Positions 2,397 to 14,607 of a DNA stretch of 64,000 nt are shown in pieces. This DNA is from Nitrospirota bacterium (lineage in GTDB: Bacteria > Nitrospirota > UBA9217), in the NCBI GenBank assembly GCA_963840455.1, contig CAWIYV010000009.1, positions 376,712 through 440,711 of the forward strand, written 5' to 3'. Position 1 is the first letter of the stretch, and every line of letters begins with the position of its first letter. Below the pieces are notes generated by a model that had not been told where the DNA came from, ran no database searches, and was given only the letters and a program-made list of their open reading frames with translations. A program made the position numbers and the translations under genes.

Positions 2397-2472
2397 TGGT
2401 GGCGGTGCAGGGACTCGAACCCCGGACACAGGGATTATGATTCCCCTGCTCTACCAGCTGAGCTACACCGCC
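2397..2472 (-). tRNA. tRNA with CAT anticodon (probably elongator tRNA-Met)
   Basis: Reverse complement GGCGGTGTAGCTCAGCTGGTAGAGCAGGGGAATCATAATCCCTGTGTCCGGGGTTCGAGTCCCTGCACCGCCACCA forms a 76-nt cloverleaf with encoded CCA. G1:C72 is paired, so it is not the initiator. Confidence 0.93.
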
Positions 2473-10701: not shown

Positions 10702-11445
10702 ATGCAATTCGCGCGAAAACTGCTCTTCATCGCACTGTTCATATCGGTTTTTGTTCCCGTCACGACGCCCTCGGCAGAAAAGGAGTTCCGCGTCATCGCG
10801 ACCGAGGAGCTCAAGGCTATGCTGGACGGGAAGAAGGACTTCGTCCTCGTGGACACGCGCACGGCCGAAGAGTATTAGGAGGCGCACATCAAGGGAGCGA
10901 TGAGCATCCCGGAAAAGAGCTTCGAGAACCAGCTCGCCCTTCTGCCGGCGGACAAGAACGCCCTGATCGTGCTGTACTGCAACGGCGTCAAGTGCGGCAA
11001 GAGCAGGAAGTCGGCAAAGAAGGCCGAGGCAGCAGGGTACATGAACCTGGTCATCTACGCCGAGGGATTCCCTGTCTGGGAGGAAAAGGGCTTTGCCATC
11101 GTTGCCGGGCCGGAGCACGCGAAGAAGATCGAGACCGCGAAGGTGAAGACCTACCGAGCTCAAGCAGCTCCTGGATACGAAGTAGCGCGAACATCGTGAT
11201 CGTGGACGTACGGGACGAGGCGGAGTTCAGGGAAGGGCACATCCCCACGTCGATCAACATCCCCGTCGAGACCTTCGCGCTCCGCTCCGAGGTCCTACCG
11301 AAGGAGAAAGAAGATCATCGTGTACTGCAACACCGGCGGCAGGAGCTACAACGCCTACCGGAAGCTGATGAAGCTCGCTTATCCGAGCATCGCTCAGGCG
11401 ACCTTTGCTGAGTGGAAGGAAGCGGGCATGCCCGTCGAGAAGTAG
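10702..11445 (+). pseudogene. Exported tandem-rhodanese sulfurtransferase, disrupted
   Basis: GGAGG RBS and signal peptide. Two rhodanese domains (YCNGVKCGKS; YCNTGGRS) are reconstructed across an in-frame TAG at 10876-10878 and frameshifts near 11150-11185 and ~11310. Confidence 0.8.
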
Positions 11446-11463
11446 ACAGGGGAACGATCGTAG

Positions 11464-11990
11464 ATGTCCGACGAAATTTCATCGATCAGAAAGGTATATC
11501 GCGATCCCTCTTCGATCGGACCCTGGGAGAGGTGCGTTCCCGAGGGCGGCTAGGCACCGTGGTAGCCGGAAAGGCCGATGCATTTAATCGGGTCCTCACC
11601 GGCCGCACCAGCGGCCAGGGACGGGACAGGTTCCGCTTCACCCGGAAGGGGGAGTATCGCATCAAGAACTGCCGGAAAGTGGACCTTGGATGCGGCTACC
11701 GCATTGTCTGCATCCAGAAGGATCACCGTCTCGTCCTGCTGTTCATCGGCACGCACGACGACTGTTTCCGGTGGATCGAGCGTCACCGTACGGCAGAGTA
11801 TGACCTTGACGGCGTGCCCGAGGAGGCATGGACGGCCGTTATCGCCGATCGTCCGGCCGAGCGGCCGCGCCGGGAATTGGAGCACGACGAGGAGTGTCTT
11901 GCCGAGGAATATGAAGAGTCGCTCATGGACAAGATCGATGACGGGGTCCTGCGGAAAGTATTCGCCGGCATCGTCAATGGACGAACGTGA
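11464..11990 (+). CDS. Hypothetical protein with RelE/ParE-like signature (probable frameshift near 11508)
   Basis: KVDLGCGYRIVC...LVLLFIGTHDDC resembles the RelE-superfamily C-terminal strands. The ATG at 11464 is out of frame with the main ORF. Confidence 0.5.
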
Positions 11991-12044
11991 TCAAGGAACG
12001 GTAACGATGAGCGAACGAAAATTTGCTTGAAAGGAGATCAGACC

Positions 12045-12677
12045 ATGAAACATACATTCACGCTGGGGGCGAGCACCATCCCGGGAGAGTTCATCATTCC
12101 CCGGCTGCTGTCAGCCATGATCAAGCACCTGCCGGAGATCGAGCTCAAGGTGGAGATCTCGGACAGCCTGAAGGTGTTTGAGGGGGTGCGGAAAGGACAG
12201 CACGAGATCGGAATTATCGGGACGCGGTTCGATTCGCCGGAGGTCGACTTCGCGGTCATGGTCAAGGACGACCGGCTGGTGCTGATCACACCGAAGAACC
12301 ATCCGCTTGCAGCGAAACAAAACGTAGCCTTGAGCGACCTCAAAGGTCAGAGCTTCGTCACCCGGGAAAAGGGCTCGGGGACGCGGGCGGCCTATGAGAA
12401 GGCGTTCAAGGACGCGGGGCTCGCGCTAGCGGACCTGAACACGGTCGCCGAGGTCGGTACCACCGAAGGGGTCATCCAGGCTGTCGAGGGCGGCGCGGGG
12501 ATCGCCATTGTTTCGGAGCTGGCGGCGAAAGAGGCCATCGAGCTCGGGAAGATCAAGGCGTTGAACATTCCCCTGCTCAAGATGGTCCGGGATTTCTCGA
12601 TCATTACCCGGAAAGGGACAGCGCTTTCGAAAGATGCATCGGAAGTGCTTGCCGTGATCAAGGCGGTCATGAAGTAA
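12045..12677 (+). CDS. LysR effector-binding-domain-only protein (no HTH)
   Basis: AAGGAG RBS; begins directly at TLGASTIPGEFIIP; contains REKGSGTR; clearly similar to the C-terminal part of 9660-10550. Confidence 0.85.
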   Translation: MKHTFTLGASTIPGEFIIPRLLSAMIKHLPEIELKVEISDSLKVFEGVRKGQHEIGIIGTRFDSPEVDFAVMVKDDRLVLITPKNHPLAAKQNVALSDLKGQSFVTREKGSGTRAAYEKAFKDAGLALADLNTVAEVGTTEGVIQAVEGGAGIAIVSELAAKEAIELGKIKALNIPLLKMVRDFSIITRKGTALSKDASEVLAVIKAVMK

Positions 12678-12727
12678 CGTAGATACAGTTTGCTGAAGGA
12701 GCAGTGCTGTCAACGAGGAGACGTTAT

Positions 12728-12822
12728 GACTGGCTGTGTCGGCTGGCGCCGGCTGCAGGCTTCAATCCTGTAGGACTGCCGTGAAGGGCATGTCATCGGT
12801 TCGATTCCGAAGTCAGTCTCCA
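12728..12822 (+). tRNA. Atypical tRNA(UCA): tRNA-Sec-like body, 8/4 fold, U73
   Basis: Acceptor GACTGGCT/AGTCAGTC (8 bp); D stem GTCGGC/GCCGGC (6 bp) with TGGC loop; anticodon stem TGCAGG/CCTGTA with loop CTTCAAT; long variable arm; T stem TCGG/CCGA (4 bp) with TTCGATT loop; ends T-CCA. Confidence 0.9.
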
Positions 12823-12906
12823 AGTGAACGAACGACCAGCCAGGAATGCATTGTCGCAGAACGAACGAGCGGGGAGGCTCTTCGATCTCATCTCAAGGAG
12901 GAGTAC

Positions 12907-13425
12907 ATGGAACGGGAGCATCGTGAAGAGAAGGATCGCGAGGAGCTGAGCAGGCAGGATTTCCTGAAGGTCGCGGGGATCGCCGGCCTCGGCATGGCTG
13001 GGTTGGGCGCCATGATGAGCGCGCCCGTGTCAGCGGAAGAGGCCAAGGAGGGGAAGAAGGGGAAGTATGTCATCGTCATTACCCACGGAGGCAACAATCC
13101 GAACCGTGCGATCTGGGCGCTCCTGATGGCGGAGACGATCCAGAAGAAGGGATTGGGCGATGTGCATGTCTGGATGACCATCGAAGGAGCCGACCTGAGC
13201 AAGAAGAGCGTTCCCGAGAAGATCGTTTCTCCTATATTCTCCAAGTTCGGCAATGCCATGGAGATCATGGACCGTGTGCGGAAGAACGGGTGCAAGTTCG
13301 GCGTCTGCCCTCCCTGCGCGGAGTATTTCAGCGCCAAGGGCGATGAGAAGTTCGACTGGGTGGAGCTGCAGGGCGGCGACTGGCTGATGAAGAATATCCA
13401 GGATGCCTGGGTGGTGTGGTTCTAG
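12907..13425 (+). CDS. DsrE-family protein with Tat-like leader
   Basis: AAGGAGGAG RBS; SRQDFLK plus hydrophobic stretch; VHVWMTIEGA...VCPPC DsrE fold. Confidence 0.75.
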   Translation: MEREHREEKDREELSRQDFLKVAGIAGLGMAGLGAMMSAPVSAEEAKEGKKGKYVIVITHGGNNPNRAIWALLMAETIQKKGLGDVHVWMTIEGADLSKKSVPEKIVSPIFSKFGNAMEIMDRVRKNGCKFGVCPPCAEYFSAKGDEKFDWVELQGGDWLMKNIQDAWVVWF

Positions 13426-13507
13426 CGGTATCATTTCGCAAGGGGGCCGGTCGTGTTTGCTGCGACTGGCCCTGATCGTTTAGAAGAACGAGCAACGGAG
13501 GTCGGAC

Positions 13508-13921
13508 ATGCATGCGGAAGGACCGAGTACCGGCTGTGGAGCACATGCAAAAGGCGCCGAGATGAGAACGAGCGATGCGGGCTGGGCAAAGAGCCTGCTG
13601 CTGATCGTGGGATCGGATGTTCTGGGCAAGGAAGAGGCCATCGGAAAGGTCCTGATGAAGGGCTTCTTCGAGACGATGAAGGTCCACAAACAGGTACCGC
13701 ACACCATCTTCTTCCTGAACGCGGGAGTGAAGCTGACCACCACGAACGAAGAAACGGTACCGCTCCTCAAGGAGATTGAGGCCATGGGCGTCGAGATCTA
13801 CACCTGCGGTACCTGCCTTAAATACTACAACCTTGAGCCCTCTCTCAAGGTCGGACATCGCGGTACGACCAATCATATTGTTGAGGGACTGCAGGACTTC
13901 GGCAAGGTCGTGTGGATCTGA
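13508..13921 (+). CDS. YedF-like selenium-metabolism protein (DsrE-like domain only)
   Basis: SDVLG...IGKVLMKGFFETM...IFFLNAGVKLT...GVEIYTCGTCLKYY matches the YedF C-terminal domain. No TusA-like N-terminal domain is seen. Confidence 0.8.
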   Translation: MHAEGPSTGCGAHAKGAEMRTSDAGWAKSLLLIVGSDVLGKEEAIGKVLMKGFFETMKVHKQVPHTIFFLNAGVKLTTTNEETVPLLKEIEAMGVEIYTCGTCLKYYNLEPSLKVGHRGTTNHIVEGLQDFGKVVWI

Positions 13922-14115
13922 AACAGGTCTGGAGCTCTGTTCCGCGATGAACGTCAAGGTCCGGCTCTGTTCGCCGCCCGTCGTTTCTGTCTTTCACCAC
14001 GCAACTCTCCATCAAACACCGTTATATTTACTCCGCCTCTTCAACCATCCTGTCTTCCCTGTGTCTTATCAACCGGACGCAAGATCAAATTATTCGACAC
14101 AAGGAGGATACAGGT

Positions 14116-14607
14116 ATGAAGAAGTATTGGATCATCGGTTTAGTGCTGGTACTTGCGGCAGCAACAGCGGCATTCGCGCAGCCCTGGCAGGGATGGAAGA
14201 ACTGCGGGGGCTGGTGCAAGGAAGAGGGGATGACGGGAGGGCCGGGCGGCGGGCAGGGAAGGATGTATGACCCCGCCAAAGCGGAGACGATCAAGGGCGA
14301 GGTGACGGCGGTCGAGCAGATCGGCGGCGGCCGGAGGATGGGCCCGGGCGTGGGGCTGAAGCTCAAGACGGCAGCGGGCGAACAGTTCGTACATCTGGGG
14401 CCGCAGTGGTACATCGAACAGCAGGGAGAAATGCCGATCAAGGCAGGAGACACGGTCGAGGTGACGGGCGTGAAGGCCGCGCGCGGCGGCAAGGACTTCT
14501 TCATCGCCGGGATGGTTAAGAAAGGCGATGACGTTCTGAAGCTTCGCGATGAGACCGGCGTCCCCGCGTGGGCGGGATGGAGGCGGGGAGGGGTGGCACC
14601 GAAGTAG
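14116..14607 (+). CDS. Exported OB-fold-like protein
   Basis: AAGGAGG RBS; signal peptide; MYDP...ETIKGEV...VHLGPQWY...GDTVEVTG...LRDETGVPAW. Confidence 0.75.
   Translation: MKKYWIIGLVLVLAAATAAFAQPWQGWKNCGGWCKEEGMTGGPGGGQGRMYDPAKAETIKGEVTAVEQIGGGRRMGPGVGLKLKTAAGEQFVHLGPQWYIEQQGEMPIKAGDTVEVTGVKAARGGKDFFIAGMVKKGDDVLKLRDETGVPAWAGWRRGGVAPK

What the first reader, a model, noticed from the sequence alone, without database searches (positions are those of the whole stretch)
12728..12822. Non-canonical UGA-reading tRNA: tRNA-Sec-like body with an 8/4 fold and U73
Seen: a complete 95-nt cloverleaf, invisible to the ORF track, with anticodon TCA (12762-12764), 6-bp D stem and 4-nt loop, 6-bp anticodon stem, long variable arm, 8-bp acceptor stem, only a 4-bp T stem, and discriminator T before the encoded CCA. 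Established: canonical bacterial tRNA-Sec is 8/5 with G73, and U73 is a major CysRS identity element. 8/4 tRNAs (allo-tRNAs and selC* tRNA-Cys) are described in the literature (recalled: Mukai et al. 2017). Inference: this may not be the housekeeping selC. It could be an auxiliary opal decoder that inserts Cys (or Ser, via the long variable arm) at Sec UGA codons, for example under selenium limitation, or a divergent 8/4 tRNA-Sec. No selA/selB/selD/cysS gene is in this window.
Basis: partly seen in the sequence, partly recalled or inferred. Interest (0 to 1): 0.93.

Follow-up and report, generated by a model that had tools for sequence, protein, structure and literature searches.

The report
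Second, cysteine-type selenocysteine-like tRNA gene
This is a real, conserved second UGA-reading tRNA in a Nitrospirota genome that also has a normal selenocysteine tRNA; it fits a published class of look-alike tRNAs thought to insert cysteine at selenocysteine codons, so it is a new member of a known kind.

Summary
Window 12728-12822 (+) is a 95-nt cloverleaf with anticodon UCA, an 8-bp acceptor stem, a 6-bp D stem with a 4-nt loop, a long variable arm, a 4-bp T stem, U73 and an encoded CCA.

The same genome has a better-scoring tRNA-Sec with G73 and an 8/5 fold on another contig. It has one selA, one selB, one Sec-type selD, one cysS and one tRNA-Cys(GCA). This gene is therefore not the housekeeping selC.

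Homologues keep UCA and U73 (all 22 aligned copies keep both; the anticodon-blind searches turned up 23 Nitrospirota copies, all UCA). They occur in 19 of 63 sampled genomes of the same Nitrospirota family and in 0 of 337 genomes from other Nitrospirota families. Near-identical bodies turn up in Desulfobulbales, Eisenbacteria, Acidobacteriota and a Clostridia MAG. Covariation supports the cloverleaf. The 8/4 reading is right for this gene but is lineage-specific; many relatives outside the phylum fit 7/5.

It meets every sequence-level criterion of the published selC* tRNA-Cys / tRNA-ReC class (Mukai 2017; Vargas-Rodriguez 2018). It lacks the deltaproteobacterial subgroup's A51a bulge, selB* and cysS*.

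Within its family it is tightly linked to selenium genes: yedF, a selenium-associated LysR regulator, and in one genome a second selD. Charging with Cys and the delivery factor are inferred, not shown.

Verdict: new member of a known kind, moderate interest.

The parts
12728..12822 (+). tRNA-Sec-like tRNA(UCA) with U73 and an encoded CCA. Acceptor 5' strand 12728-12735; D arm 12738-12753; anticodon arm 12754-12772 (anticodon 12762-12764); variable arm 12773-12795; T arm 12796-12810; acceptor 3' strand 12811-12818; U73 at 12819; CCA 12820-12822.
   Evidence: Conservation and covariation.
12027..12677 (+). Context. ORF for a LysR substrate-binding domain only, with no HTH. It ends 50 nt before the tRNA and its best match is the NCBIfam 'selenium metabolism-associated LysR'.
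   Evidence: NF040786, 184 bits, profile positions 86-297, below the cut-off of 250 because it is truncated; stop-to-stop frame. The same HTH-less form is 83-91% identical in G003, G031 and G179. A full-length version in G005 scores 302 bits.
12907..13425 (+). Context. DsrE-like ORF with an N-terminal signal-like stretch, starting 84 nt after the tRNA on the same strand.
   Evidence: translation. PF02635 at 21.9 bits, just under the cut-off of 22.7. Orthologues lie in G003 and G001.
13508..13921 (+). Context. yedF-like gene holding only the C-terminal domain. Relatives carry a full-length 200-aa yedF directly upstream of the tRNA.
   Evidence: TIGR03527, 134 bits against a cut-off of 110, profile positions 81-194; full-length form in G016, 193.9 bits, profile positions 1-194. 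Synteny.
10702..11445 (+). Context. Tandem-rhodanese gene that is broken in this genome by an in-frame TAG at 10876-10878 and a frame change between about 11190 and 11320.
   Evidence: Rhodanese domain hit.

Best explanation
The gene encodes a functional second tRNA(UCA) of the selC* tRNA-Cys / tRNA-ReC kind. It has a tRNA-Sec-like body: an 8-bp acceptor stem, a 6-bp D stem with a tetraloop, and a long variable arm. It carries the cysteine discriminator U73 and G1:C72, as the genome's own tRNA-Cys does.

The most likely mechanism has three steps. The single housekeeping CysRS charges the tRNA with cysteine. The Cys-tRNA then reads UGA, chiefly the SECIS-flanked UGA codons of selenoprotein mRNAs, which include the organism's own Sec-type selD. 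Cysteine thus goes in where selenocysteine normally would, giving a back-up when Sec-tRNA-Sec is scarce.

In this Nitrospirota family the gene sits in a selenium-associated cluster (LysR_Sec_metab, rhodanese, yedF, sometimes a second selD), usually 25-70 nt downstream of yedF on the same strand. Its expression is therefore probably tied to that cluster.

Shown here: the gene, its fold, its conservation, its coexistence with a canonical selC and a full sel gene set, and its linkage to selenium genes. Inferred: the amino acid, the elongation factor (SelB or EF-Tu), co-transcription, and the physiological role.
For: (1) A canonical selC exists elsewhere in the genome: G73, 8/5 fold, 66.5 bits, against 52.9 bits for this gene.

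(2) The genome has a complete Sec apparatus: selA and selB adjacent on C7, and selD on C14 with one in-frame TGA at the catalytic position.

(3) Discriminators in this genome: all four tRNA-Ser and the canonical selC have G73. tRNA-Cys(GCA) has G1:C72 and U73, as this tRNA does.

(4) U73, G1:C72 and C3:G70 are invariant in 22 of 22 distinct homologues. UCA is kept in all 23 Nitrospirota copies found by searches blind to the anticodon, including G019's broken copy, which still reads CUUCAAC.

(5) A canonical G73 selC co-occurs in 10 of 12 family genomes that carry this tRNA. It also co-occurs in 9 of 10 further carrier genomes checked.

(6) The gene meets the published sequence-level definition of the class: a tRNA-Sec-like body, U73, and a GCA or UCA anticodon, beside a full selABCD set (PMC5389517, passages and section 17). 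It also meets the 2026 operational rule of at least 80 nt, UCA or GCA, and discriminator U (PMC13582414, passages).

(7) Citing reviews state that such a tRNA-Cys decodes Sec UGA codons as Cys and is delivered by SelB rather than EF-Tu (PMC11415595, passage; PMC13582414).

(8) Linkage to selenium genes. A yedF-like gene lies within 2.5 kb in 15 of the 23 Nitrospirota loci compared. It lies directly upstream on the same strand in 9 of them. In G005 the order is LysR_Sec_metab (302 bits), yedF, a Sec-type selD, then the tRNA.

(9) TGA is still the commonest stop codon, ending 1010 of 2337 long ORFs. This argues against constitutive general opal suppression.
Against: No aminoacylation, expression or decoding data exist for this tRNA or for any member of its sequence family.

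U34 replaces G34, which is a strong CysRS identity element (stated in PMC5389517). The genome has only a standard full-length CysRS and no anticodon-domain-less cysS*. There is also no selB*.

The acceptor/T helix is 12 bp, which is the length EF-Tu prefers. SelB and SelA are described as favouring 13 bp (PMC11231383, passage).

The long variable arm and the tRNA-Sec-like D arm are features recognised by SerRS and SelA.

Sec-type selD occurs in every family genome where a full-length selD match was found, whether or not this tRNA is present. A 'selD bootstrap' role is therefore not required in the family.

In this genome the neighbouring rhodanese, LysR and yedF genes are broken or truncated.
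Confidence: 0.65

Rival explanations
1. It is a second selenocysteine tRNA. SerRS charges it through the long variable arm, SelA converts Ser to Sec through the tRNA-Sec-like D arm, and U73 is a tolerated variant.
For: The D arm (6 bp plus tetraloop), the 8-bp acceptor stem, the long variable arm and the UCA anticodon are all tRNA-Sec features. [quoted passage not shown] A SelA that accepts a 12-bp acceptor domain is described (PMC11231383, passage). In the one Clostridia MAG (G061) no other tRNA-Sec was found.
Against: U73 is invariant in 22 of 22 homologues, while the canonical selC and every tRNA-Ser of this genome have G73. Position 2:71 is A:U or G.U, where this genome's tRNA-Ser and selC have G2. 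That G2:C71 matters to SerRS is recalled, not tested. In Mukai 2017's E. coli tests only the G73 allo-tRNA variant inserted Ser (section 15). A canonical selC is kept alongside this tRNA in nearly all carriers.
Confidence: 0.13
2. It is an allo-tRNA-like opal suppressor delivered by EF-Tu. It inserts Cys or Ser at any UGA, without SECIS or SelB, and is kept harmless by low or conditional expression.
For: The acceptor/T helix is 12 bp. Allo-tRNAs with 8/4 or 9/3 folds were delivered by EF-Tu in E. coli (section 15 of PMC5389517; PMC11231383). In 5 of 9 homologues outside the phylum the 8th acceptor pair cannot form and a normal 7/5 helix fits instead. There is no selB* here.
Against: TGA ends 43% of long ORFs. 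The anticodon is fixed at UCA, unlike the 35 different codons read by allo-tRNAs. The gene is linked to selenium genes. Citing reviews say the tested tRNA-ReC does not use EF-Tu.
Confidence: 0.12
3. It is not a working adaptor. It is either a decaying gene copy or a tRNA-shaped processing or regulatory element of the yedF/dsrE transcript.
For: Its neighbours in this genome are degraded. Degenerate copies exist: G019's acceptor 3' strand no longer pairs, G155 has D-stem mismatches, and G017 has C33. No promoter-like site was found.
Against: The cloverleaf is intact and the CCA is encoded. Compensatory changes occur in the acceptor, anticodon, variable and T stems. The anticodon loop and U73 are conserved across at least four phylum-level groups.
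Confidence: 0.05

Closest known systems
Deltaproteobacterial (8/4) selC* tRNA-Cys(UCA), as in Desulfococcus biacutus and Desulfomonile tiedjei (Mukai et al. 2017, PMC5389517)
   Same: Both are a second tRNA(UCA) beside a canonical selC. Both have U73, an 8-bp acceptor stem with a 4-bp T stem, a long variable arm, and a host that encodes a Sec-type selD.
   Different: This gene belongs to a different sequence family: GACUGG... here against (A/G)GGGGCAA... in 44 of the 119 scan hits. It has no A51a bulge in the T stem. There is no selB* downstream and no cysS*. The first pair is G1:C72 in all copies. It is linked to yedF and a LysR gene instead.
tRNA-ReC of Desulfotomaculum nigrificans (Vargas-Rodriguez et al. 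2018). The paper is not held in the library and is known here only through citing papers.
   Same: It is a tRNA-Sec-like tRNA with Cys identity, in a genome that has a normal Sec system and a single SelB. It is proposed to put Cys at Sec UGA codons.
   Different: The tested tRNA has a GCA anticodon, whereas this one has UCA. Its fold could not be compared because neither the paper nor the supplements were available.
Canonical bacterial tRNA-Sec (selC; Rfam RF01852)
   Same: It passes the Rfam threshold. It shares the UCA anticodon, the 8-bp acceptor stem, the 6-bp D stem with a 4-nt loop, and the long variable arm.
   Different: The helix is 12 bp (8/4) rather than 13 bp (8/5), and the discriminator is U73 rather than G73. 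It is only about 57% identical to the genome's own selC in a crude global alignment, and that selC is present separately.
(8/4) allo-tRNAs (Mukai et al. 2017)
   Same: Both have a 12-bp 8/4 acceptor branch, a tRNA-Sec-like D arm and a long variable arm. The host groups overlap: Clostridia, Acidobacteria and Proteobacteria.
   Different: Allo-tRNAs have highly diverse anticodons and Ser or Ala identity elements (G73, or G3:U70). This family is fixed at UCA, U73 and C3:G70.

Membership tests
selC* tRNA-Cys / tRNA-ReC | tRNA-Sec-like body: long variable arm, and acceptor and anticodon stems longer than in canonical tRNAs | tested here: met
   The acceptor stem is 8 bp, the anticodon stem 6 bp in this gene, the variable region 23 nt, and the D stem 6 bp with a 4-nt loop.
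selC* tRNA-Cys / tRNA-ReC | Discriminator U73 | tested here: met
   (T at 12819). Invariant in 22 of 22 homologues.
selC* tRNA-Cys / tRNA-ReC | Anticodon GCA or UCA | tested here: met
   UCA at 12762-12764.
selC* tRNA-Cys / tRNA-ReC | Coexists with a canonical selC and complete selA, selB and selD | tested here: met
selC* tRNA-Cys / tRNA-ReC | Charged with cysteine by CysRS | not testable with these tools
   Only identity elements can be compared: U73 and G1:C72 are shared with this genome's tRNA-Cys.
selC* tRNA-Cys / tRNA-ReC | Decodes SECIS-linked UGA as Cys, delivered by SelB | not testable with these tools
   One selB is present.
Deltaproteobacterial (8/4) selC* subgroup | Bulged A51a in a 4-bp T stem | tested here: not met
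   The T stem UCGG/CCGA has no bulge. The bulged form GGAGG/CCCC is seen in the other sequence family.
Deltaproteobacterial (8/4) selC* subgroup | selB* directly downstream. In one subgroup, also cysS* together with A1:U72. | tested here: not met
   The genome has a single selB and a single full-length cysS, both on other contigs. The genes downstream of the tRNA are dsrE-like and yedF-like. The first pair is G1:C72.
Canonical bacterial tRNA-Sec | 13-bp 8/5 acceptor/T helix | tested here: not met
   Only 12 nt follow the T loop before position 73, and a fifth T-stem pair would be A.A.
Canonical bacterial tRNA-Sec | Discriminator G73 | tested here: not met
   The discriminator is U73. The genome's other tRNA(UCA) has G73.
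allo-tRNA | 12-bp acceptor branch in an 8/4 or 9/3 arrangement | tested here: met
   This gene is 8/4. However, 5 of 9 relatives outside the phylum fit 7/5 instead.
allo-tRNA | Diverse anticodons across the family, with Ser or Ala identity (G73, or G3:U70) | tested here: not met
   UCA is present in all 23 Nitrospirota copies found without using the anticodon, the broken G019 copy included. U73 and C3:G70 are invariant.

The most novel reading that the evidence does not exclude
This GACUGG-type tRNA(UCA)-U73 may be a distinct lineage of Cys-type UGA decoder, spread laterally between phyla, that needs no dedicated selB* or cysS*. In Nitrospirota it would be wired into a selenium-responsive LysR-rhodanese-yedF-(selD) operon and co-transcribed with it. 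It would switch on when selenium runs short, so that the Sec-type SelD and other selenoproteins can still be made with Cys. Its swing adenosine would let the helix change between 7/5 (the EF-Tu type) and 8/4 (the SelB type) in different lineages.
Probability: 0.3. Interest if true: 0.6.

Novelty: new member of a known kind. Interest (0 to 1): 0.4.

Why it matters
Look-alike tRNAs that put cysteine at selenocysteine codons blur the reading of UGA. Every predicted selenoprotein in a carrier genome may in fact be made as a Sec/Cys mixture.

This case adds four things to the published picture:

- A carrier group in Nitrospirota, with 19 of 63 sampled genomes of one family carrying the gene.
- A sequence family shared with Desulfobulbales, Eisenbacteria, Acidobacteriota and a Clostridia MAG.
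- Evidence that the system can exist without an extra SelB or CysRS.
- A repeated physical link to yedF, LysR_Sec_metab and selD genes, which suggests a testable selenium-dependent control.

It does not change the known principle.

Tried and rejected
Correlation with Sec-type selD. Every full-length selD match in the family has one in-frame TGA, whether or not the genome carries the tRNA. The test therefore does not discriminate.

In-frame UGA in a neighbouring gene as a possible target. The interrupted rhodanese frame has a TAG, plus a frame change whose old frame then ends at a TGA (11197-11199, read as U186). Neither looks like a recoded UGA, so it reads as a broken gene.

Promoter scan of 11900-14200. 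No sigma-70-like site was found, and the five terminator-like hits are not placed informatively.

Conserved context outside Nitrospirota. None was found. The neighbours are tupABC, ppk1, hemW, radical-SAM genes or ORFs with no family hit. A LysR-like hit lies near L138, and a selA start lies 5.4 kb from L168.

Expression. No RNA holder was listed among 20 runs.

Laying contigs of runs X1-X4. Only short fragments were laid, and none spans the tRNA. One 150-nt contig covers 12792-12944 with no difference listed at 12819. This is too thin to use as evidence.

Sequencing error at position 73. Rejected, because U73 is present in 22 of 22 distinct homologues from independent assemblies.

Distribution outside Nitrospirota is therefore a lower bound. 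The pattern also required CUUCAA and UCCA, so UCA and U73 in those nine outside sequences are there by design.

[quoted passage not shown] PMC6103700 is not held.

Not used: structure prediction, fold search, the search for homologous proteins, the protein atlas and complex prediction. None bears on a tRNA.

Full report
THE OBJECT. Window 12728-12822 (+) reads as a complete 95-nt cloverleaf.
- Acceptor stem GACUGGCU/AGUCAGUC, 8 bp.
- Linker GU.
- D stem GUCGGC/GCCGGC with a 4-nt loop.
- Anticodon stem UGCAGG/CCUGUA with loop CUUCAAU; the anticodon UCA is at 12762-12764.
- A 23-nt variable region.
- T stem UCGG/CCGA with loop UUCGAUU.
- U73 at 12819 and CCA at 12820-12822.

The minimum-free-energy structure is exactly this fold (-42.1 kcal/mol, z = -2.9). 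ARAGORN calls tRNA-SeC(tca), shifted by one base. Rfam's tRNA-Sec model scores 52.9 bits against a gathering score of 47. A fifth T-stem pair would be A.A, so the 8/4 reading is correct for this gene.

THE REST OF THE GENOME. The window is C9:376712-440711 of a 4.03-Mb assembly in 14 contigs, rated 100% complete.
- A second tRNA(UCA) lies at C1:311722-320 (311722-311820). It scores higher (66.5 bits), has G73, a 5-bp T stem and an 8-position acceptor stem whose eighth pair is G.G.
- There is one selA and one selB, adjacent on C7.
- There is one selD on C14, with a single in-frame TGA at the catalytic position, reading ...TCG*AAKIGP.
- There is one full-length cysS and one tRNA-Cys(GCA).
- No second selB or cysS was found.
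- All four tRNA-Ser and the canonical selC have G73. tRNA-Cys has G1:C72 and U73, as this tRNA does.

The gene in the window is therefore not the housekeeping selC.

WHO ELSE HAS IT. A blastn search, which ignores the anticodon, found it in 11 of 36 other genomes of the same family and in 0 of 24 genomes from other families of the phylum. One more carrier, G031, surfaced through the Rfam search. In an even sample of 400 genomes of the phylum it was found in 19 of 63 genomes of this family and in 0 of 337 genomes of the 43 other families.

One relative's contig matches, by length and by tRNA sequence, a record titled 'MAG: Nitrospirota bacterium', and two others match records titled 'uncultured Nitrospiraceae bacterium'. 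The phylum is therefore Nitrospirota.

All 23 Nitrospirota copies that I read have UCA. All have U73 except G019's copy, whose 3' acceptor strand no longer pairs. A few other copies look damaged: G155 has D-stem mismatches and G017 has C33.

The canonical selC was found in 32 of 36 family genomes, and in 10 of the 12 that carry this tRNA.

A pattern scan of one genome per GTDB species required CUUCAA, a long variable region, a GGUYCRAWUCC T loop, 10-11 nt and then UCCA. Of these:
- 13 belong to this tRNA's sequence family. Four are Nitrospirota. The other nine are from Desulfobulbales (3), Candidatus Eisenbacteria (2), Acidobacteriota (1), a Clostridia MAG (1) and two loci, L168 and L187, whose record titles I did not see in the list.
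- 44 belong to a different family, (A/G)GGGGCAA...GGAGG-UUCGAUU-CCCC...U-CCA. Its bulged T stem and its Desulfobacterales hosts match the published deltaproteobacterial 8/4 selC* (description).
- The rest are other tRNA-like sequences or chance matches.

In 9 of 10 further carrier genomes searched whole, a G73 canonical selC was also present. The exception is the 2.2-Mb Clostridia MAG.

This tRNA is 66-75% identical to the copies outside its phylum, but only about 57% identical to its own genome's selC. A patchy spread within one family, combined with near-identical bodies in unrelated phyla, suggests lateral transfer. I did not test that with a tree.

STRUCTURE ACROSS THE FAMILY. On 22 distinct sequences, 94% of cells pair and 15 of 31 pairs change on both sides. 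No shuffle out of 500 reaches these values, and sliding the partners collapses pairing to 26-52%.

The 8/4 and 7/5 readings score alike overall, because they differ in one pair only. The nucleotide after CCG(A/U) is always A. It can pair either with nucleotide 8 or with the nucleotide before UCGG.
- In the 13 Nitrospirota rows, U8 is present in 13 of 13. The alternative partner is A in 7 and U in 6, so 8/4 is favoured (it is the only option in 7 rows).
- In the nine outside rows, the alternative U-A pair is present in 9 of 9. Nucleotide 8 is U in only 4, so 7/5 is the only option in 5 rows.

The 8/4 fold is thus a lineage trait, not a family hallmark.

NEIGHBOURS. In this window the tRNA follows, by 50 nt, an ORF that is a LysR substrate-binding domain without an HTH. 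Its best match is NCBIfam 'selenium metabolism-associated LysR' (184 bits, profile positions 86-297).

The tRNA precedes, by 84 nt, a DsrE-like ORF, and after that a yedF-like ORF that holds only the C-terminal domain (TIGR03527, 134 bits, profile positions 81-194).

Further upstream is a tandem-rhodanese gene broken by a TAG and a frame change.

In relatives the picture is cleaner. A full-length yedF (193.9 bits) ends 25-70 nt before the tRNA on the same strand in nine genomes: G010, G016, G027, G030, G031, G070/G210, G155, G229 and G257. In G005 the order is a full-length LysR_Sec_metab (302 bits against a cut-off of 250), yedF, a second Sec-type selD, then the tRNA. In all, a yedF-like gene lies within 2.5 kb at 15 of the 23 loci compared. 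Outside Nitrospirota no such context recurs.

WHAT IT MOST LIKELY IS. Mukai et al. 2017 define selC* tRNA-Cys as tRNA-Sec-like tRNAs with U73 and a GCA or UCA anticodon, found beside a complete selABCD set. [quoted passage not shown] For that paper I read the abstract, passages, and sections 14, 15 and 17.

The follow-up by Vargas-Rodriguez et al. 2018 is not held in the library. [quoted passage not shown] A 2026 paper already annotates the class by a simple rule: at least 80 nt, UCA or GCA, and discriminator U.

The gene here meets all of these sequence-level criteria. It does not meet the marks of the deltaproteobacterial subgroup, which are the A51a bulge, selB* downstream, and cysS* with A1:U72.

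I therefore file it as a member of the class but not of that subgroup. The mechanism I commit to is charging by the ordinary CysRS through U73 and G1:C72, followed by reading of selenoprotein UGA codons as Cys.

WHAT SPEAKS AGAINST THIS, AND WHAT IS OPEN.
- Nothing here tests charging or decoding.
- U34 removes a strong CysRS identity element, and there is no relaxed cysS*.
- The helix is 12 bp, the length EF-Tu prefers, while SelB and SelA are described as favouring 13 bp (passage). The delivery factor is therefore open.
- TGA ends 1010 of 2337 long ORFs, which argues against strong constitutive read-through but not against a weak or conditional one.
- The long variable arm and the D arm would suit SerRS and SelA, so a second tRNA-Sec remains possible.
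- Against that possibility stand the invariant U73 beside G73 in every Ser and Sec tRNA of this genome, and the finding that only a G73 allo-tRNA inserted Ser in E. coli.
- The attractive idea that the tRNA lets a Sec-type SelD be made without selenium gets no support from distribution. Every full-length selD match in the family is Sec-type, with or without the tRNA.

NOVELTY AND VERDICT. The kind has been known since 2017. The additions here are modest:
- a carrier family in Nitrospirota;
- a bulge-free sequence family shared across phyla;
- independence from selB* and cysS*;
- a fold that shifts between 8/4 and 7/5 by lineage;
- a repeated link to yedF, LysR_Sec_metab and selD.

I could not see the 2017 supplements or the 2018 paper, so some of this may already be listed there. 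My two literature searches for the class found no paper describing the yedF or LysR linkage: selC, tRNACys, opal, Nitrospirae, selenocysteine, CysRS; tRNASec-like, tRNACys, SelB, UGA, cysteine, discriminator. That is weak evidence of absence. Interest is moderate at 0.4.

Noticed in passing
L072:2001-2144 (-) and L073:2001-2144 (+), from genomes G035 and G028 of the same family: A 144-nt RF01852 match (49 bits) with a GCA anticodon and an apparent U73-CCA end. It carries an insertion of about 55-70 nt in the variable arm and lies about 115 nt downstream of a Sec-type selD. It looks like a second, different selC*-type gene in this family.
   Followed up: partly
L071:2001-2098 (+), genome G056, another family of the phylum: A tRNA-Sec-like gene (50.6 bits) with a GCA anticodon and U73-CCA. 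By eye the helix is 8/5 (GAGGGGUG/CACCCCUC; T stem GUGUG/CGCAC). ARAGORN did not call it.
   Followed up: partly
L219:2001-2094 (-), genome G070: A second copy of the GACUGG-type tRNA(UCA)-U73 in one genome. It lies just upstream of two cobalamin riboswitch matches (73.3 and 67.5 bits), the nearer about 12 nt from its 3' end and the other about 730 nt further on.
   Followed up: no
window 10702-11445 (+): A tandem-rhodanese gene with a signal peptide is interrupted by TAG at 10876-10878, at a position where rhodaneses usually have an ordinary residue. The reading frame also changes between about 11190 and 11320. It is probably a pseudogene or an assembly error.
   Followed up: partly
window 12027-12677 (+): A stand-alone LysR substrate-binding domain with no HTH. 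It is conserved at 83-91% identity in G003, G031 and G179, so it is probably a real HTH-less paralogue and not a fresh truncation.
   Followed up: partly
window 11412-11990 (+): A 192-aa ORF with no Pfam or NCBIfam hit. It recurs next to the tRNA in G001, G003, G033, G215 and G155 at 48-64% identity.
   Followed up: no
L122:3716-4627 (+), genome G005: A second selD, also with TGA at the catalytic position, sits between yedF and the tRNA. G005 has another selD elsewhere in the genome.
   Followed up: partly
L084, L127, L164, L190 and L193 (Sulfurospirillum, Candidatus Marinarcus and others whose titles I did not see): Another group of tRNA(UCA) genes ending in U-CCA, with a long variable arm and what looks like an ordinary 7/5 helix (GCGGAUG.../...CAUCCGC).
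   Followed up: no
window 2397-2472 (-): An ordinary tRNA-Met(CAT), 65.2 bits against RF00005.
   Followed up: no
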